A stretch of DNA of 64,000 nucleotides from a virus. The position numbers were made by a program, and so were the translations under genes. This document shows positions 56,807 to 64,000 of this stretch, piece by piece. Within the stretch, counting starts at the first letter, position 1. Each line of letters opens with the position of its first letter. The notes under the pieces were generated by a model that was not told the DNA's origin, searched no databases, and worked only from the letters and a program-made list of their open reading frames with translations. Where the stretch lies: the IMG/VR virus record IMGVR_UViG_3300027769_000918, positions 27,482 to 91,481 of that record; one strand, written 5' to 3'.

Positions 56807-57107
56807 TCAAGAACAAATGGATTTTGCCCATAAAGTCGTTGTTAGACTTATGGAAATTTTAAAGGTATGTCCTAATGTTGATGACAAGTATCGTTGCCAC
56901 ACCCCTACACAAAAACCACATCAGAGGTGTGTAGACTTAATGGTACTTCTTGCTGAAATAACAAACCTGCCTGAATATCTTGTGTATCTTGGAAACAATG
57001 AAGAGACTAAAGTAGATCCATATGGATGGATTCTTGCTTATCCTCCAGCTGAAGCAATTGTTCAAGGTGAATTAAATAATGATACAAAAGTAGTTGACTT
57101 AGAATAA
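56787..57107 (+). CDS. hypothetical protein
   Basis: 106 aa, last gene of the plus-strand operon. Confidence 0.55.
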   Translation: MKLMAYSQEQMDFAHKVVVRLMEILKVCPNVDDKYRCHTPTQKPHQRCVDLMVLLAEITNLPEYLVYLGNNEETKVDPYGWILAYPPAEAIVQGELNNDTKVVDLE

Positions 57108-57122
57108 AACATATTCTACAAT
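57094..57122 (+). promoter_or_regulatory. sigma-A-type promoter
   Basis: TTGACT-17 bp-TACAAT. Confidence 0.7.
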
Positions 57123-57128
57123 AAAGAT

Positions 57129-57226
57129 GTGTAGGTTAGAGACACCACCATGTCTCCCTATATAATGTGTAGCAATACACTAGAAAAGCCCATTCGGATC
57201 CGCCTCTGAATGGGATTTTTTCTTTT
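57129..57226 (+). ncRNA. candidate ~100 nt three-hairpin small RNA
   Basis: Own promoter, three stem-loops (loops CCACCA, GCAA, TCCGCC), ends in a U-tract; no credible ORF. Confidence 0.55.
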
Positions 57227-57920: not shown

Positions 57921-57944
57921 ATTGTTATTATACCACCTTTCAAG

Positions 57945-58019
57945 TAGGGATACTGGGATTTGAACCCAGAGTCGTTTGTATATAAGACAAATGCTTTAAC
58001 CAGATTAAGCTATATCCCC
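57945..58019 (-). tRNA. tRNA-Ile (anticodon UAU)
   Basis: GGGGATA acceptor stem, GCTT/AAGC D-arm, TTTGT-CTTATAT-ACAAA anticodon arm, CTGGG-TTCAAAT-CCCAG T-arm, discriminator A; CCA not encoded. Confidence 0.9.
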
Positions 58020-58976: not shown

Positions 58977-58998
58977 TGTCAGACCCCCCTGCTAGAGT
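58977..58998 (+). promoter_or_regulatory. early promoter P1, TGTCAG-N10-TAGAGT
   Basis: RecA-NDp/PafBC-type consensus, upstream of the ORF at 59050. Confidence 0.75.
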
Positions 58999-59049
58999 TA
59001 TACTATAAAGAAAATCAAGAAAGGTTCTTGATAAAGAAAGGAAAACAAA

Positions 59050-59256
59050 ATGTTTTCACTAAGTTATAAAGTCCAATACTCGGACACCGAGTTCTCTACT
59101 TGTCTAGGTGTTCTAATGAATACCGAACAAGATGCTAATGAGTATCTTGACCTACTAGCCCTAAGAGGCACTATCTTAGAAACTAATCTAAGAGAGTTAG
59201 AAAATTACAAGCCTAGCACTCGCAAGGTTTATGCTACTACTAGAAGTTGGGAGTAA
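59050..59256 (+). CDS. early hypothetical protein
   Basis: 68 aa, GAAAGGA RBS. Confidence 0.65.
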   Translation: MFSLSYKVQYSDTEFSTCLGVLMNTEQDANEYLDLLALRGTILETNLRELENYKPSTRKVYATTRSWE

Positions 59257-59261
59257 TACTA

Positions 59262-59375
59262 ATGAACGATTACTATGATGACATCTATCTAGACATCTAT
59301 CTAGAGTTTGGTGCGGATAGCGTATCCGACCCCGTCTATGCTGAGCAATTAGCAAAAGATAAGGGTGTGAGGTAA
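59262..59375 (+). CDS. 37 aa acidic early peptide
   Basis: MNDYYDDIYLDIYLEFG...; GGGAG RBS. Confidence 0.5.
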   Translation: MNDYYDDIYLDIYLEFGADSVSDPVYAEQLAKDKGVR

Positions 59376-59381
59376 CTCACA
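59366..59381. promoter_or_regulatory. CRP/GlxR-type box
   Basis: TGTGA-GGTAAC-TCACA. Confidence 0.7.
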
Positions 59382-59409
59382 CCGACACACCTAGCCCTAT
59401 GCTAGGTAA

Positions 59410-59431
59410 TGTCAGCCCAATAGGCTACAAT
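59410..59431 (+). promoter_or_regulatory. early promoter P2, TGTCAG-N10-TACAAT
   Basis: Exact spacing; upstream of the ORF at 59467. Confidence 0.8.
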
Positions 59432-59466
59432 TTCTACTATAACTACTAACGAAAGAAGAACAGATA

Positions 59467-59640
59467 ATGACTATCACTTACTCAATTTGGCAAGGCTCTC
59501 GCCTACTATCTATTGACAATGTAGCCCACGAAATAAAGGCTATTGACCACCTAATCGCAACACTAAACGCTAGCGAATTAGGTAAGAAAACTAAGTTTTC
59601 TGCTAATGTAATGACTATCAAGACAGGAGATAATAAGTAA
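59467..59640 (+). CDS. 57 aa early protein
   Basis: MTITYSIWQGSRLL...; first gene of a TAATG-coupled chain. Confidence 0.6.
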   Translation: MTITYSIWQGSRLLSIDNVAHEIKAIDHLIATLNASELGKKTKFSANVMTIKTGDNK

Positions 59641-59813
59641 TGATGACTAAATGGGATACTATCCAAGCAGATGTAAGCGACGCTTATGTTTATCTTGATG
59701 AAGAAGAAATGTATAACAAGGCACTAGAAGAAGGTGCTATTGACCTACTAGATGTTGATGATTTTGATGAAGATGAATTAAGCAAATCACTTACACTAGA
59801 TTGGAATGACTAA
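59640..59813 (+). CDS. 57 aa highly acidic early protein
   Basis: MMTKWDTIQADV...DVDDFDEDELSKSLTLDWND. Confidence 0.6.
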   Translation: MMTKWDTIQADVSDAYVYLDEEEMYNKALEEGAIDLLDVDDFDEDELSKSLTLDWND

Positions 59814-59968
59814 TGATTACAGATGGACTAGAGTTATACATAACTACCGACTACGGAATAGAGTTAGATAGTTTTCTAGGGGCTATCTACCTACCTTGGC
59901 ACACTATCGCTATTGCTACCGCCCTACTAATTGCCTACAAGATTTACAAGAGAAAGAAGAATAAGTAA
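59813..59968 (+). CDS. 51 aa membrane protein
   Basis: Hydrophobic segment followed by KIYKRKKNK. Confidence 0.55.
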   Translation: MITDGLELYITTDYGIELDSFLGAIYLPWHTIAIATALLIAYKIYKRKKNK

Positions 59969-60078
59969 TGACTACTAATCGCCTACTAACTACCGCCGTC
60001 CAATTACTACTAGCGGGCGTAACTATTCCGCTACTAATTGCCGTAATAAAAGACATAAAAGAAAACGGGTTAAACTAA
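59968..60078 (+). CDS. 36 aa membrane peptide
   Basis: MTTNRLLTTAVQLLLAGVTIPLLIAVIKDIKENGLN. Confidence 0.55.
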   Translation: MTTNRLLTTAVQLLLAGVTIPLLIAVIKDIKENGLN

Positions 60079-60272
60079 TGAAATCACAATTAGAAAAAGA
60101 TTTAGAAATAAAAGAAAGCTTTATAGATTTACTAAATGACATTTATCCAACTGTAAAAATCGGTTACTCAACTTTTACACCCGCCGAAATCTTAGAGTGT
60201 TGCGATCCCGTTGCGTTTGCGATTGGGCTAGTAGAGCACGAAGATTATTTAGCAGAATTAGAAAATGAATAA
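60078..60272 (+). CDS. acidic early protein
   Basis: 64 aa, TAATG-coupled. Confidence 0.65.
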   Translation: MKSQLEKDLEIKESFIDLLNDIYPTVKIGYSTFTPAEILECCDPVAFAIGLVEHEDYLAELENE

Positions 60273-60409
60273 ATAAAAACGGCGTGTCGGCTTGACAAAG
60301 TCGACAATGCCCGCAAGGGTGCGGCGTCGGGCGTGTCGTTACGACATTGTTATAAAATCCCTCGAATTTTGCGGCGTGTCGATTTGACAGACAATTCGGA
60401 CATTTTGCG

Positions 60410-60425
60410 TGTGATGTTTATCACA
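60410..60425. promoter_or_regulatory. CRP/GlxR-type box
   Basis: TGTGA-TGTTTA-TCACA. Confidence 0.7.
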
Positions 60426-60472
60426 AAGCCCACGCTCCAAATACTGAGACAAACCCTTGCCAAATTGGAAAA

Positions 60473-60494
60473 TGTCAGTGCGTTCGTGTATAAT
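60473..60494 (+). promoter_or_regulatory. early promoter P3, TGTCAGTG-N8-TATAAT
   Basis: Matches the TGTCRgtg-N8-TAnnnT core. Confidence 0.8.
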
Positions 60495-60529
60495 TCCATA
60501 CATAACAACAAACGAAAGAAGGTCTGCCA

Positions 60530-60736
60530 ATGGCTACCAAACTATACACAATCGAAAGCCTACTTGTAGGAAAAAACTATCGCTCAAATACTCGCCACTT
60601 TTCAGGTGAGATTATTTCTGCTGAACACCGCCCAGAAATTTGGTATGGCGAAAATACTGAAGCCTACCTAATCGAAATAAATGCGGGTGGCTTGCGAAAT
60701 AAATTCGCAACAATCGCAGTAAAGGTTGGTGAATAA
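60530..60736 (+). CDS. early hypothetical protein
   Basis: 68 aa, GAAGG RBS. Confidence 0.65.
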   Translation: MATKLYTIESLLVGKNYRSNTRHFSGEIISAEHRPEIWYGENTEAYLIEINAGGLRNKFATIAVKVGE

Positions 60737-60738
60737 TA

Positions 60739-60864
60739 ATGGGATACATCGAAATTTTTCGTATGGACAACGAGGGTGCTGGCTGGGTAGATTTATCCGA
60801 AGCCACTCCCGATGAATTATTTAACATCGAATTAGGATTATTAGAGGAAGGTGCGTTCGAATGA
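60739..60864 (+). CDS. 41 aa acidic early peptide
   Basis: MGYIEIFRMDNEGAGWVDLSEATPDELF... Confidence 0.55.
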   Translation: MGYIEIFRMDNEGAGWVDLSEATPDELFNIELGLLEEGAFE

Positions 60865-60983
60865 ACTTAGATGAATTCAAAAAGCACGTTATCGCACAAC
60901 GTGAAGCAAGCAAGGCAGAAGCCTTGTCAGTGCTATCTGCTACAATTACCAAAACAAACGAAAGGGAAAACCTAAATGGCTAA
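60861..60983 (+). CDS. 40 aa early peptide
   Basis: ATGA overlap, GAAGG RBS; contains promoter P4. Confidence 0.45.
   Translation: MNLDEFKKHVIAQREASKAEALSVLSATITKTNERENLNG
60925..60946 (+). promoter_or_regulatory. early promoter P4, TGTCAGTG-N8-TACAAT
   Basis: Full consensus match, upstream of the ORF at 60976. Confidence 0.75.
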
Positions 60984-61140
60984 AGTAAAAGAATACATAG
61001 AAATAATCGCAGCAAATTGCGATGAATGCGGTGGTGCTGGTTTCTTATTTTGGGGAACTGAAAATAACTACGATGTAGAGCCTTGTTCTTGCGTAGATGA
61101 AATTTCTGATGAACTAACACTAGATTGGGTAAATAACTAA
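60976..61140 (+). CDS. 54 aa zinc-finger early protein
   Basis: CDECGGAG...PCSC; C-terminus ELTLDWVNN. Confidence 0.6.
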   Translation: MAKVKEYIEIIAANCDECGGAGFLFWGTENNYDVEPCSCVDEISDELTLDWVNN

Positions 61141-61343
61141 TGTATAAACTAACTTGTGCCTATGATAGCAACGCTCCTCATTGGTCTGCTGAATACGAAA
61201 ACGAATTTGGTGCGTGGGAAAACTTTTTCTTGTTCACCGATTGGGGAATGGCTGACGAATACTCAACTGTAAATCTTTATACGCCAACAGGCAAATGCTA
61301 TACAAAAGTTTTTTATCGCAGTGGAATGGTGGCAGTAAAATGA
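61140..61343 (+). CDS. early hypothetical protein
   Basis: 67 aa, TAATG-coupled. Confidence 0.6.
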   Translation: MYKLTCAYDSNAPHWSAEYENEFGAWENFFLFTDWGMADEYSTVNLYTPTGKCYTKVFYRSGMVAVK

Positions 61344-61531
61344 TGACTCGTAAAGATTATGTCGCAACGGCAGAAATTCTAAATTATCTTAGCAACAAGG
61401 TTCACCCTGCTGTTTTTTCTAAAACTGTTCACGATTTCGCAGAAATGTTTGCGAAAGATAATGAGCGATTTGATGTAAAACGATTTCACGAAGCGAGTAA
61501 TTATAATGTTCCAAACTTCACTTCGAGATAA
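61340..61531 (+). CDS. early hypothetical protein
   Basis: MMTRKDYV...FAKDNERFDVKRF, a recurrent phage small-protein pattern. Confidence 0.65.
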   Translation: MMTRKDYVATAEILNYLSNKVHPAVFSKTVHDFAEMFAKDNERFDVKRFHEASNYNVPNFTSR

Positions 61532-61637
61532 AGTAAAACGCATTCAGGAATTGCGTCGCAGTAATGCGGCGCAACCTGTTCGCAATAAAAAAAAATACAC
61601 ACGCAAGATCAAACATAAAAATAAAAACGAAAGTTAA
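61506..61637 (+). CDS. 43 aa highly basic peptide
   Basis: ...IQELRRSNAAQPVRNKKKYTRKIKHK. Confidence 0.55.
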   Translation: MFQTSLRDKVKRIQELRRSNAAQPVRNKKKYTRKIKHKNKNES

Positions 61638-61731
61638 TTTGTCGACAAAGCCCGCACATAGCTGCGGTGTCGGGCGTGTCGTTAAGACTGTGATTTAAAA
61701 CACCCTGGAATTTTGCGTGTCGATTAGAAAA

Positions 61732-61753
61732 TGTCAGTGGCCCATGGTATTAT
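61732..61753 (+). promoter_or_regulatory. early promoter P5, TGTCAGTG-N8-TATTAT
   Basis: Consensus match upstream of ATG 61779. Confidence 0.75.
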
Positions 61754-61778
61754 TCTCTTACTAACGAAAGGTCAACTA

Positions 61779-62498
61779 ATGAAATTAAAGCGTTCTAATG
61801 ATAGAAAGGTGGCTAACCTTGTCACAAAAAATGGAAAGCAAGCCGCAATTGCTAACACGTTCGGATTACCCGCAGGAAAAGATTTCTCATGTCCTGGCGC
61901 TACGTCTATCTGCGAGACTGTTTGCTATGCAGGCAAATTGGAAAAACTCTTCAAGGGAGTAAAAACTAATCTTCTTCACAATTGGGAATTGTTACGCAAT
62001 GCAGACATGGAGACCATGTATCAATTGCTTAATGAAATGATTATTGACTTTAAAGCCGATTGTGTAAAGAAAGACGCCCCTATGTTATTCCGTATCCACT
62101 GGGACGGAGATTTCTTTAATGATTTCTATACTTATGCCTGGAAGAATGTGATCAATGAGCACACCGATGTTCAATTCTGGGTTTATACACGTGTAAAGTC
62201 TGCAGCGCTTATTCTTAAGGATGTATCTAATCTATCTCTTTATTATTCTACCGATGATGAGAATAAAGAAACGGGCCACGAGTTAAAAAAGAATTCTGGT
62301 ATCCGCCTTGCTTATCTAGGGAAGACATTTGCCGTAACCGAAAACACAATGAAAGAATTAACTGGCAAGCCTGGCGCTAAGTGTCCAGAGAATATGAAAA
62401 GCATTCCGCTTATTAGCAATGCAGGGTCCGCATGTGTGTCATGTGGCCTATGTGTTTATGGTAAAGCAGATATTAGATTTTCTGCGAGTAAAAAATGA
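61779..62498 (+). CDS. gene product 88-like Cys-motif protein
   Basis: 'FGLPAG..SCPGATSICETVCYA', 'FRIHWDGDF', 'FWVYTR', C-terminal CP...CxxCxxC; GAAAGG RBS. Confidence 0.7.
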   Translation: MKLKRSNDRKVANLVTKNGKQAAIANTFGLPAGKDFSCPGATSICETVCYAGKLEKLFKGVKTNLLHNWELLRNADMETMYQLLNEMIIDFKADCVKKDAPMLFRIHWDGDFFNDFYTYAWKNVINEHTDVQFWVYTRVKSAALILKDVSNLSLYYSTDDENKETGHELKKNSGIRLAYLGKTFAVTENTMKELTGKPGAKCPENMKSIPLISNAGSACVSCGLCVYGKADIRFSASKK

Positions 62499-62599
62499 TT
62501 GTAGATATTCTTGGAGCTATAATTGCTATTATTTTAATTAGTGTAATCACTGTACCTATACCGTTAGGAATGTGGATGATATTTAGAGCTAACAAATAG
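62495..62599 (+). CDS. 34 aa membrane peptide
   Basis: MIVDILGAIIAIILISVITVPIPLGMWMIFRANK; ATGA overlap. Confidence 0.45.
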   Translation: MIVDILGAIIAIILISVITVPIPLGMWMIFRANK

Positions 62600-62646
62600 C
62601 GGCGTGTTGACTTGACAAGATCAAGTTAGCCCGCAACATTGCGGGG

Positions 62647-62676
62647 TTATCCACAGGCTTACGACAGTTATCCACA
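62647..62676 (+). promoter_or_regulatory. two DnaA boxes
   Basis: TTATCCACA at 62647-62655 and 62668-62676. Confidence 0.7.
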
Positions 62677-62688
62677 ACCCCTCAAAAA

Positions 62689-62704
62689 TGTGAGTATTAT
62701 CACA
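62689..62704. promoter_or_regulatory. CRP/GlxR-type box
   Basis: TGTGA-GTATTA-TCACA. Confidence 0.7.
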
Positions 62705-62737
62705 AAAGCTGCGACACGCCGAGGGTGGATTAGCAAA

Positions 62738-62759
62738 TGTCGGTGGCTTAGTGTAAAAT
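62738..62759 (+). promoter_or_regulatory. early promoter P6, TGTCGGTG-N8-TAAAAT
   Basis: Consensus match upstream of the ORF at 62789. Confidence 0.8.
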
Positions 62760-62788
62760 ACCATTATTCCAACAACGAAAGGTAAGTT

Positions 62789-63013
62789 ATGTCTAATCTA
62801 ATGAAAGTTCCACACACAGTTGTATTCGAGGCAATTATTGACTTGGATAAAATTCCTGCAAGTTTATTGCCTGCGCTAATTGCTCTTGATAAAACTGCAA
62901 TTGAACAAATGTGTAAGGAAGCAACACTACACGCATTACACGAGTCTAATGTGTTACAAACTGCTAATGAGTTTAATACTTGGGCTGAAATGACTATCAA
63001 GGAAGGTAACTAA
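62789..63013 (+). CDS. early hypothetical protein
   Basis: 74 aa, GAAAGG RBS. Confidence 0.65.
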   Translation: MSNLMKVPHTVVFEAIIDLDKIPASLLPALIALDKTAIEQMCKEATLHALHESNVLQTANEFNTWAEMTIKEGN

Positions 63014-63015
63014 CA

Positions 63016-63282
63016 ATGGGATACAATACTGCGCTTGACCTTGCTAATGAATTAGATTTAGAAGTAGCAATAGGTTATCACTTACAGGGTAATCATTACC
63101 CGCCCGTTCCACTATCTATGGTAGAACCTTGCATCGAAGCAATTGACGCCTACTATGACGAGGACTATAACAAGTTGATCGAAATGCCTGAAGGCGTGTA
63201 TTATCGTGGAGATAAATTCGCACCCGCATCTGCCATTATTGAACAACACCACTTGGAAGCGTGGCTACCTGAAGAATTGTGA
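63016..63282 (+). CDS. early hypothetical protein
   Basis: 88 aa, 'HLQGNHYPPVP...HHLEAWL'. Confidence 0.7.
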   Translation: MGYNTALDLANELDLEVAIGYHLQGNHYPPVPLSMVEPCIEAIDAYYDEDYNKLIEMPEGVYYRGDKFAPASAIIEQHHLEAWLPEEL

Positions 63283-63293
63283 TTTTTATCACA
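63278..63293. promoter_or_regulatory. CRP/GlxR-type box
   Basis: TGTGA-TTTTTA-TCACA. Confidence 0.7.
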
Positions 63294-63311
63294 CGGGCAG
63301 GGGCTACTAAA

Positions 63312-63333
63312 TGTCAGTAGCCTCTGCTATAAT
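63312..63333 (+). promoter_or_regulatory. early promoter P7, TGTCAG-N10-TATAAT
   Basis: Consensus match upstream of the ORF at 63360. Confidence 0.8.
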
Positions 63334-63359
63334 CAGACACTAAACAGAAAGGAAGCAAA

Positions 63360-63533
63360 ATGACACTAGGAAACAAAACCTATCAGGTCGGTGATTTATT
63401 CACCACTCTAAAGTCAAAAGAAACAGGAGTAATCAAAGAGATTATTCCTAACGCATCTGGCTCGGTGCGAGTTCGTCTGGAAACAGACAACGGAGAACGC
63501 TGGACAACAGTTCTTGCCGATAGCCTAGCGTAA
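63360..63533 (+). CDS. 57 aa small beta-barrel-like early protein
   Basis: MTLGNKTYQVGDLFTT...TGVIKEI...; GAAAGGA RBS. Confidence 0.6.
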   Translation: MTLGNKTYQVGDLFTTLKSKETGVIKEIIPNASGSVRVRLETDNGERWTTVLADSLA

Positions 63534-63550
63534 TAAAACGGCAGGGGGGT

Positions 63551-63572
63551 TGTCAGACCCCCCTGCTATAAT
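63551..63572 (+). promoter_or_regulatory. early promoter P8, TGTCAG-N10-TATAAT
   Basis: Consensus match upstream of the ORF at 63612. Confidence 0.8.
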
Positions 63573-63611
63573 ACTCATACCAACAACCAACCAACGAAAG
63601 GTAATAAATAA

Positions 63612-64000
63612 ATGAGCAGACAAATCACAGTAAAGGTAGCAACAAGCAAAGTAATCAAGGCACTAGAGGCTCGTCTAGCAACGCTAGAAAACGATTACAA
63701 CACACAGACCGCAAAGGAAGCAAAGTTCGGCAAAGCGCAAGAAGCGTGGCGCAAGGAAATTGCTAAGTGGGCTATTGCTAACTTCTCAAAGGCTGAGAAC
63801 CTTCGCACAAACTATCGTCAATGGAACAACACTCTCAATGTTGATTTTGACATCATCACAAAGGAAGGAAACTTCCCTGCTGAACCTGAAAAGGATTTTG
63901 AGGTTATCCATCAGCACCAGTATCGTGAGATGAAAGAGGACATCACAAATGCCCTAACAATTCTCAAGATGACAGATGAGGAAACAGTAAATGCTTCTAC
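63612..64000 (+). CDS. early hypothetical protein (runs off the window)
   Basis: MSRQITVKVATSKVIKALE...; open to the window end; GAAAGG RBS. Confidence 0.7.
   Translation, partial: MSRQITVKVATSKVIKALEARLATLENDYNTQTAKEAKFGKAQEAWRKEIAKWAIANFSKAENLRTNYRQWNNTLNVDFDIITKEGNFPAEPEKDFEVIHQHQYREMKEDITNALTILKMTDEETVNAS

What the first reader, a model, noticed from the sequence alone, without database searches (positions are those of the whole stretch)
58977..63572. All eight early promoters match the actinobacterial PafBC / RecA-NDp DNA-damage promoter (TGTCRG-N10-TAnnnT)
Seen: TGTC(A/G)G followed by exactly 10 nt and a TAnnnT -10 box at 58977, 59410, 60473, 60925, 61732, 62738, 63312 and 63551. Each lies about 25-50 nt before a start codon with a GAAAG-type RBS, and four continue as TGTCRGTG. 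I did not notice the motif at late-gene promoters. Established: tTGTCRgtg-N8-TAnnnT is the LexA-independent RecA-NDp promoter of mycobacteria. It is recognised at about -26 by the WYL-domain activator PafBC, which is switched on by single-stranded nucleic acid and reprograms sigma-A RNA polymerase. Inference: the phage places its early, host-takeover programme under the host DNA-damage activator, perhaps triggered by its own injected DNA ends. Alternatively it encodes its own WYL-type activator outside this window. I do not know of this being described as a phage early-transcription strategy.
Basis: partly seen in the sequence, partly recalled or inferred. Interest (0 to 1): 0.92.

Follow-up and report, generated by a model that had tools for sequence, protein, structure and literature searches.

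The report
Lake phage promoters copy PafBC promoters
An uncultured freshwater phage of actinobacteria drives a block of small genes from eight promoters built like the host promoters that PafBC, the single-stranded-DNA alarm activator, switches on, so the phage probably plugs into its host's DNA-damage switch; nothing has been tested at the bench.

Summary
TGTCRG-N10-TAnnnT occurs 8 times in the window, all on the + strand within 58977-63572. Shuffles give 1.04, and there are no other copies in the 91.5-kb contig.

The contig is an IMG/VR phage fragment, 38% GC and about 71% complete. All 80 fetched relatives (from more than 578 hits) carry 6-19 co-oriented copies. Five complete relatives of 110-116 kb carry 15-24, nearly all in one 10-13 kb block. 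An unconditioned alignment conserves only ATGTCAG and the -10.

The geometry equals the published PafBC ChIP motif. The five complete relatives encode WhiB but no WYL protein, sigma factor or integrase.

26 of 30 recA loci carry TGTCAGTGG..CTGCTAccTT followed directly by a LexA box. The motif also precedes a DUF6504-dnaE2-like operon. Host and phage sites share features that were not in the search pattern.

My reading is that these are sigma-A promoters with a PafBC-type -26 box, probably bound by host PafBC. Their timing ("early"), the trigger and the host identity remain inferred.

This scan made the same finding on at least 41 other genomes, and follow-ups agreed. I found no paper describing it.

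The parts
58977..58998 (+). Promoter P1: TGTCAG box, 10 nt, TAGAGT; variant TGTCAGACCCC. Drives the 68-aa ORF 59050-59256 and a following small ORF.
   Evidence: 29.1 bits
59410..59431 (+). Promoter P2 (TGTCAGCCC..TACAAT). Drives five small ORFs in 59467-60272. A CRP-like box lies 52.5 bp before its -10.
60473..60494 (+). Promoter P3 (TGTCAGTG..TGTATAAT). Drives ORFs in 60530-60983.
60925..60946 (+). Promoter P4 (TGTCAGTG..TGCTACAAT), lying inside the end of a 40-aa ORF. Drives ORFs in 60976-61637.
61732..61753 (+). Promoter P5 (TGTCAGTGG..TGGTATTAT). Drives the 239-aa GP88-family gene 61779-62498 and a 34-aa ORF. Its box and -10 are the only conserved islands in 36 distinct orthologous upstream regions.
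   Evidence: 31.5 bits
62738..62759 (+). Promoter P6 (TGTCGGTGG..TGTAAAAT), the only site with G at the R position. Drives ORFs 62789-63013 and 63016-63282.
63312..63333 (+). Promoter P7 (TGTCAGTAG..TGCTATAAT). Drives the 57-aa ORF 63360-63533. The box lies in the loop of a 13-bp hairpin at 63296-63328.
   Evidence: -22.6 kcal/mol, z -6.1
63551..63572 (+). Promoter P8 (TGTCAGACCCCCC..TGCTATAAT). Drives the ORF from 63612 that runs off the contig. The box lies in the loop of a 12-bp G/C hairpin at 63540-63567.
   Evidence: -25.3 kcal/mol, z -6.0
59050..64000 (+). Rightward block of about 25 small genes, only one of them over 130 aa, cut by the contig end. In complete relatives the block is 10-13 kb with 15-24 such promoters.

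Best explanation
The eight sites are promoters read by the host's primary-sigma RNA polymerase. Each has a near-consensus extended -10 (TGnTAtAAT), no conserved -35, and an AAATGTCAG box whose TGTCAG lies at about -28 to -23. This is the architecture of actinobacterial PafBC-dependent (RecA-NDp) DNA-damage promoters. The most likely mechanism is that host PafBC, activated by single-stranded DNA, binds the box and recruits or re-positions sigma-A polymerase ("sigma adaptation"). The rightward small-gene block would then be switched on or boosted by the host's own DNA-damage alarm. The host is an actinobacterium, probably a low-GC freshwater lineage such as acI/Nanopelagicales. Shown: the motif, its restriction to one gene block, its conservation, its identity with host recA and dnaE2-type promoters, pafBC in the candidate hosts, and the lack of any WYL protein or sigma factor in the phage. 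Inferred: PafBC binding, the timing of expression, the trigger, and the exact host.
For: (1) There are 8 sites against 1.04 expected, all co-oriented in 4.6 kb, with none elsewhere in 91 kb. (2) All 80 fetched relatives have 6-19 copies, almost all on the + strand. Five complete relatives (portal 74-79% identical) have 15-24, nearly all in one 10-13 kb block. (3) A logo of 732 unique sites reads AAATGTCAG-t-SS-nnn-cTGc-TAtAAT, with no -35 information. An unconditioned alignment of 36 orthologous upstream regions conserves only ATGTCAG and the -10. (4) The published PafBC motif is tGTCgg(N10)tA(N3)T with a -26 element and no -35 (PMC8635444). (5) In the order around MAG G006, 31 of 31 genomes have tandem WYL genes. 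One pair tested shows WYL+WCX and HTH_PafC+WYL+WCX next to tatC, and the first gene matches PafB/PafBC chains in PDB entries 7p5x, 9fnd and 6sj9 at E about 1e-39 to 1e-33. (6) 26 of 30 recA loci there, plus a second Actinomycetota MAG, carry the motif about 155 nt before recA; 17 of the 19 distinct variants are followed directly by TCGAAC-N4-GTTCG. The motif also precedes a DUF6504 gene followed by a second Pol III alpha (dnaE2-like) gene; the Pol III alpha gene was confirmed in two of three genomes. (7) Features outside the search pattern are shared. A at the R position: host 16/19, phage 86%. [not G][GG/CC] after the box: host 17/19, phage 74%. TG at +13/14: host 14/19, phage 61%. Across five whole host genomes, 17 of 52 hits have the [ACT][GG/CC] extension against about 9% expected (p about 1e-6). 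(8) Evidence for an actinobacterial host: WhiB in all five complete relatives, the portal 58% identical to Streptomyces Stanwilliamsviridae, a GP88 family gene, and Shine-Dalgarno-led genes. (9) The phage has no WYL protein, no sigma-70 region 2, and no tyrosine or serine recombinase. (10) The minus-strand block uses extended -10 promoters without the box, so the box marks one regulatory class.
Against: The host is not identified directly. Related phage contigs are binned into MAGs of Bacteroidota, a cyanobacterium, Victivallaceae and Methylococcus as well as Actinomycetota. The phage -10 is near consensus with a TG extension, so these promoters might fire without any activator. The loose 22-nt pattern is not enriched genome-wide in host genomes over its reversed control, so the host regulon is small. 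Streptomyces relatives have 0-1 sites, so this is a lineage-specific trait and not a family habit. PafBC is inactive without single-stranded DNA, which sits awkwardly with immediate-early expression.
Confidence: 0.6

Rival explanations
1. A phage-encoded factor, not PafBC, reads the box. The factor would lack a WYL domain, would be made from earlier promoters or carried in the virion, and would redirect sigma-A polymerase as T4 MotA/AsiA does at middle promoters.
For: The box sits where the T4 MotA box sits relative to the -10 (general knowledge; the comparison is made in PMC8635444). Most genes in the block have no known family. Box-less extended -10 promoters exist elsewhere in the genome and could come first.
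Against: It would be a coincidence that the same box, the same spacing and the same flanking preferences mark recA and dnaE2-like promoters of actinobacteria. No WYL protein or sigma factor is found in five complete relatives.
Confidence: 0.13
2. The promoters are constitutive extended -10 promoters. In this reading the box does not mainly activate them. It serves to soak up PafBC (15-24 high-affinity sites per genome copy) and blunt the host DNA-damage response, or it acts as an operator for shut-off.
For: The TGnTAtAAT -10 is near consensus. The phage also has box-less promoters of the same -10 type. There are many sites per genome.
Against: The fixed 10-nt spacing to the -10 and the strict co-orientation are what activation geometry requires; a pure decoy does not need them.
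Confidence: 0.12
3. Another host component reads the box in both host and phage. This could be a different transcription factor, or sigma-A region 4 itself in this lineage.
For: PafBC binding has been shown only in mycobacteria. The candidate hosts also carry a third WYL protein of about 735 aa.
Against: The motif equals the mycobacterial PafBC ChIP motif. pafBC orthologues are universal in the candidate order. The motif marks classic PafBC regulon genes there.
Confidence: 0.08
4. The motif is a by-product of something else. It could be chance, or the loop of terminator hairpins between gene cassettes.
For: At P7 and P8 the box lies in the loop of very stable hairpins. About 7% of sites in relatives do the same (45 of 653 at -15 kcal/mol or below, against 5 in controls).
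Against: Most sites have no hairpin. The counts are far above shuffles. The box and -10 are conserved while their flanks drift.
Confidence: 0.02

Closest known systems
PafBC-dependent (RecA-NDp, recA P1-type) promoters of Mycobacterium and other Actinobacteria; 'sigma adaptation' (Mueller et al. 2021, PMC8635444; Schilling et al. 2025, PMC11804915)
   Same: The TGTCRG box centres at about -26, lies exactly 10 nt before a TAnnnT -10, and has no -35. The continuation is often TG(G). The same box is found here at recA and dnaE2-like genes of candidate hosts.
   Different: The sites are on a lytic-looking phage, 15-24 per genome, all in one block of small genes. The -10 is near consensus with a TG extension, whereas host sites have weak -10s. 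An A-rich tract precedes the box. Dependence on PafBC is untested.
T4 middle promoters (MotA box plus sigma-70 -10; MotA/AsiA sigma appropriation)
   Same: A phage promoter class in which an activator box closer than -35 replaces the -35 element and is combined with a host-type -10.
   Different: The T4 box sequence differs and is read by phage-made proteins. Here the box is the host's own, and no phage WYL protein or sigma factor is found. MotA and AsiA homologues were not searched.
LexA/SOS-coupled phage genes and other WYL regulators that sense single-stranded DNA (DriD, CapW, BrxR)
   Same: Mobile-element or defence genes are tied to a host DNA-damage or single-stranded-DNA signal.
   Different: Those systems work by repressor cleavage or by WYL proteins encoded next to their targets. 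Here a phage without an integrase appears to borrow a host activator through promoter mimicry.
Clustered early promoters of large lytic phages (SPO1 host-takeover module, T5 early region)
   Same: Many closely spaced, co-oriented strong promoters in front of short genes of unknown function.
   Different: Those are ordinary -35/-10 promoters of the host primary sigma factor, without an activator box.

Membership tests
PafBC-dependent (RecA-NDp) promoter class | Upstream element TGTC(A/G)G centred near -26 | tested here: met
   Present at all eight sites. ATGTCAG is conserved in unconditioned orthologue alignments.
PafBC-dependent (RecA-NDp) promoter class | Exactly 10 nt between the box and a TAnnnT -10 | tested here: met
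   The published motif is tGTCgg(N10)tA(N3)T.
PafBC-dependent (RecA-NDp) promoter class | No conserved -35 hexamer | tested here: met
   Information content is at most 0.16 bit at positions -7 to -4 of the expected -35 hexamer; the rise at -3 to -1 is the A-rich tract preceding the box (732 sites). Canonical promoter matches in the region are not above shuffles.
PafBC-dependent (RecA-NDp) promoter class | Host encodes PafB and PafC | tested here: inconclusive
   31 of 31 genomes of the candidate host order have tandem pafB-pafC orthologues, but the phage's host is inferred and not shown.
PafBC-dependent (RecA-NDp) promoter class | The same motif marks DNA-damage genes (recA, dnaE2) of the host lineage | tested here: met
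   Found at 26 of 30 recA loci plus G007, and at DUF6504-dnaE2-like operons. Absent at recA of Bacteroidota and cyanobacterial MAGs.
PafBC-dependent (RecA-NDp) promoter class | Transcription starts about 7 nt after the -10 | not testable with these tools
PafBC-dependent (RecA-NDp) promoter class | Activity depends on PafBC and is induced by DNA damage or single-stranded DNA | not testable with these tools
   This needs bench work.
T4-type sigma appropriation (MotA/AsiA) middle promoters | A phage-encoded activator and co-activator that read the box | not tested
   Only WYL and sigma-70 region 2 were searched, and both are absent. MotA and AsiA families were not searched.
Actinophage (phage of Actinomycetota) | WhiB-like gene, structural genes related to known actinophages | tested here: met
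   WhiB is present in 5 of 5 complete relatives but not on this 71%-complete contig. The portal is 58% identical to Streptomyces phages.

The most novel reading that the evidence does not exclude
The phage uses the host's single-stranded-DNA alarm as its ignition key. Single-stranded DNA made by injection, by host nuclease attack on the incoming genome, or by the first rounds of phage replication activates PafBC. PafBC then fires 15-24 phage promoters at once. The multi-copy boxes also draw PafBC away from host repair genes. A defence or repair signal would thus be turned into the phage's own start signal in one of the most abundant groups of lake bacteria.
Probability: 0.3. Interest if true: 0.9.

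Novelty: new variant of a known kind. Interest (0 to 1): 0.78.

Why it matters
PafBC and sigma adaptation are known only as a cellular DNA-damage response, studied in mycobacteria. If this reading is right, a very widespread group of lake phages has copied that promoter type wholesale: more than 578 related contigs in IMG/VR. That would be a new way for a lytic phage to control a gene block, by mimicking an activator-dependent host promoter and not by bringing its own sigma factor, polymerase or appropriator. It would also give a promoter-based clue to the hosts of uncultured phages. It extends the PafBC regulon and motif to streamlined freshwater actinobacteria. And it supplies dozens of natural promoter variants for dissecting how PafBC recognises the box.

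Tried and rejected
2. Host assignment by binning failed. Related phage contigs sit in MAGs of at least six unrelated taxa.
3. Nucleotide searches of cultured phages gave only one short gene match or none.
4. The idea that the whole Streptomyces-phage family uses the motif is rejected. BillNye, Starbow and Ankus have 0-1 hits.
5. Genome-wide enrichment of the loose pattern in host genomes is not seen. Only the extended form and the gene context are informative.
6. A phage-encoded WYL activator, sigma factor or integrase is absent.
7. A hairpin over the box is not a general feature. My first pair-count measure showed no excess over controls. Only strong hairpins are enriched, and they cover about 7% of sites.
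8. A canonical -35 is not conserved.
9. Locus L188 comes from unpublished genome G041 and was left out.
Full report
**Observation**

The pattern TGTCRG-N10-TAnnnT matches eight times in the 64-kb window. 100 dinucleotide-preserving shuffles gave a mean of 1.04 and a maximum of 4. The window is the last 64 kb of a 91,481-bp IMG/VR virus contig with 38% GC. IMG/VR classes it as linear and CheckV estimates it at 71% complete. The rest of the contig has no match.

A weight matrix built from relatives scores the eight sites at 24-31.5 bits. The next best position in 91 kb scores 11.8, which is the level seen in shuffled sequence. Four sites continue as TGTCRGTG. Each lies 25-51 nt before a start codon preceded by GAAAG(G).

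**The phage**

Nearly all large genes lie on the minus strand.
- Structural genes include portal, virion and fibre proteins.
- Replication and nucleotide genes include Pol III alpha, DnaB, DnaG, RecA, a Cas4-like nuclease, GMP reductase and a class II ribonucleotide reductase.

The rightward block starting near 58.9 kb holds about 25 small genes. Only a GP88-family gene (61779-62498) exceeds 130 aa, and the block runs off the contig end.

The portal is 58% identical to those of Streptomyces Stanwilliamsviridae phages. Three such phages have 0-1 motif hits, so the trait is specific to this lineage.

**Conservation**

The GP88-like protein has more than 578 relatives in IMG/VR, and the 80 kept are 87-98% identical. 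All 80 fetched loci carry 6-19 copies of the motif, almost all co-oriented with the gene.

Five complete relatives of 110-116 kb were examined in more detail.
- Their portals are 74-79% identical to this one.
- They carry 15-24 sites each, nearly all within one 10-13 kb block.

A logo of 732 unique sites reads AAATGTCAG, then t, then two G/C positions, three free positions, cTGc, and TAtAAT. It carries no information where a -35 would lie.

That logo was conditioned on the search pattern, so I also aligned the 160 nt upstream of the GP88 gene from 36 distinct relatives without any conditioning. Only ATGTCAG and the -10 stand out as conserved islands. Canonical -35/-10 matches in the region are not above shuffles.

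The minus-strand block has about ten consensus extended -10 promoters without the box. The box therefore defines one promoter class of the phage, not all of them.

**Comparison with PafBC promoters**

The published in vivo PafBC motif is tGTCgg(N10)tA(N3)T. It has a PafBC-specific element at -26, a normal sigma-A -10 and no -35 (PMC8635444). If transcription starts about 7 nt after the -10, TGTCAG here lies at -28 to -23. The geometry is identical.

**Is there an actinobacterial host with PafBC?**

All five complete relatives encode a WhiB-like protein above the Pfam cut-off. Of 14 control genomes only Corynebacterium has one. This contig lacks it, which fits the missing 29%. Late genes use clear Shine-Dalgarno sites.

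Binning gives no answer. Related phage contigs sit in MAGs labelled Chitinophagales, Bacteroidia, cyanobacterium, Victivallaceae, Methylococcus, and two Actinomycetota.

One of those Actinomycetota MAGs (G006, 1.3 Mb) gave access to its order. The 31 genomes sampled are 1.2-2.2 Mb, and many are closed at 1.2-1.5 Mb. The findings in that order are:
- All 31 genomes have two adjacent WYL genes of 300-350 aa.
- In one genome the pair reads WYL+WCX and HTH_PafC+WYL+WCX, followed by tatC. The first gene matches PafB or PafBC chains in PDB entries 7p5x, 9fnd and 6sj9, at E from 3.5e-39 to 1.2e-32. These are true pafB-pafC.
- In 26 of 30 recA loci of the order, and in the second Actinomycetota MAG, the motif lies about 155 nt before the recA start. 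17 of the 19 distinct variants are followed directly by TCGAAC-N4-GTTCG, the actinobacterial LexA box.
- In three genomes the motif precedes a DUF6504 gene. In the two checked, a second Pol III alpha (dnaE2-like) gene follows it.
- Other hits precede a DEDDh exonuclease, two DNA methylases, a LysM protein and a DUF3263 protein.

In a phylum-wide sample, 8 of 28 recA loci have the motif 75-110 nt before the RecA domain. The recA loci of the Bacteroidota and cyanobacterial MAGs have none.

**Features shared beyond the search pattern**

| Feature | Host recA sites (19 distinct) | Phage sites (527 unique) |
|---|---|---|
| A at the R position | 16 of 19 | 86% |
| [not G][GG or CC] right after the box | 17 of 19 | 74% |
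| TG at +13/+14 | 14 of 19 | 61% |

Among all 52 loose-pattern hits in five host genomes, 17 have the [ACT][GG/CC] extension. About 9% would be expected from base composition (binomial p about 1e-6). The loose pattern itself is not enriched genome-wide over its reversed control, so the host regulon is small.

**What the phage lacks**

There is no WYL domain in this contig or in the five complete relatives. There is no sigma-70 region 2 and no tyrosine or serine recombinase. A prophage-induction reading is also unlikely.

**Mechanism**

The best-supported reading is that these are sigma-A promoters with a PafBC-type -26 box that host PafBC binds. PafBC is activated by single-stranded DNA (PMC11804915, from its abstract as listed). 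The block would then be turned on or boosted when single-stranded DNA appears.

Three cautions apply.
- The -10 is near consensus with a TG extension, so basal activity without PafBC is plausible.
- "Early" is inferred only from gene size and layout. Because PafBC needs single-stranded DNA, the block could equally be switched on after replication or nuclease attack begins.
- The host is inferred.

Rivals are a phage-encoded factor without a WYL domain, a decoy or operator role for the box, and another host factor.

**Literature**

Searches for PafBC with phage, mycobacteriophage or prophage, and for RecA-NDp, found no description of phage promoters of this type. One paper on pafBC and mycobacteriophage resistance (Rafique et al. 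2025, cited in PMC12848934) was not available to read.

**Earlier notes of this scan**

The same finding was made on at least 41 other genomes, and several follow-ups reached the same reading. A note that a relative encodes WhiB was the lead I tested.

**Side observations on the same stretch**
- There are four perfect TGTGA-N6-TCACA boxes, with centres 42.5, 52.5, 57.5 and 71.5 bp before the -10 of P7, P2, P6 and P3.
- There are six GCGTGTCG boxes in three G+C-rich intergenic cassettes.
- Two TTATCCACA boxes lie 21 bp apart.
- At P7 and P8 very stable hairpins carry the box in their loop. Strong hairpins of this kind occur at about 7% of sites in relatives.

Noticed in passing
window 59366-59381, 60410-60425, 62689-62704, 63278-63293: Four perfect CRP/GlxR-type palindromes TGTGA-N6-TCACA (0.06 expected). 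Their centres lie 52.5, 71.5, 57.5 and 42.5 bp before the first T of the -10 of P2, P3, P6 and P7. They may be a second, cAMP-type input into the same promoters.
   Followed up: partly
window 60282-60381, 61674-61722, 62712-62719: Six GCGTGTCG boxes (0.24 expected in the whole window) lie in three homologous G+C-rich intergenic cassettes. The cassettes sit between transcription units, upstream of P3, P5 and P6.
   Followed up: partly
window 62647-62655 and 62668-62676: Two perfect DnaA-box 9-mers TTATCCACA lie 21 bp apart in the cassette upstream of P6. The count in the window alone is not significant (3 against 0.84 expected), but notes on relatives report the same pairs.
   Followed up: partly
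window 63540-63567 and 63296-63328: Very stable hairpins (-25.3 and -22.6 kcal/mol, z about -6) have the TGTCAG box in the loop and the promoter spacer as the right arm. This looks like terminator-promoter overlap. Strong hairpins occur at about 7% of sites in relatives.
   Followed up: yes
window 57094-57214: A TTGACT-17-TACAAT promoter is followed about 70 nt later by a 10-bp hairpin with a T-run, and there is no ORF between them.
   Followed up: no
window 57944-58019 (- strand): A tRNA-Ile gene with anticodon TAT lies just left of the divergent promoter region.
   Followed up: no
G000:C1 minus strand, e.g. window 43780, 24971, 23694, 15371, 11367: A second promoter class in the replication and virion block: consensus extended -10 (TGnTA[T/C]AAT) without the TGTCAG box and without a clear -35.
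   Followed up: partly
L142, L156 (G035:C1:11870, G033:C1:900695): In the candidate host order the PafBC-type motif also sits 7 and 18 nt before the starts of a D12 adenine methylase gene and a C5 cytosine methylase gene. The first would be a leaderless transcript. This suggests that damage-inducible DNA methylases belong to the regulon.
   Followed up: no
L195-L197 (G005:C1:21353-21526 and equivalents): All five complete relatives encode a WhiB-like protein on the minus strand, roughly 10-18 kb beyond the promoter block. That part is missing from this contig.
   Followed up: partly
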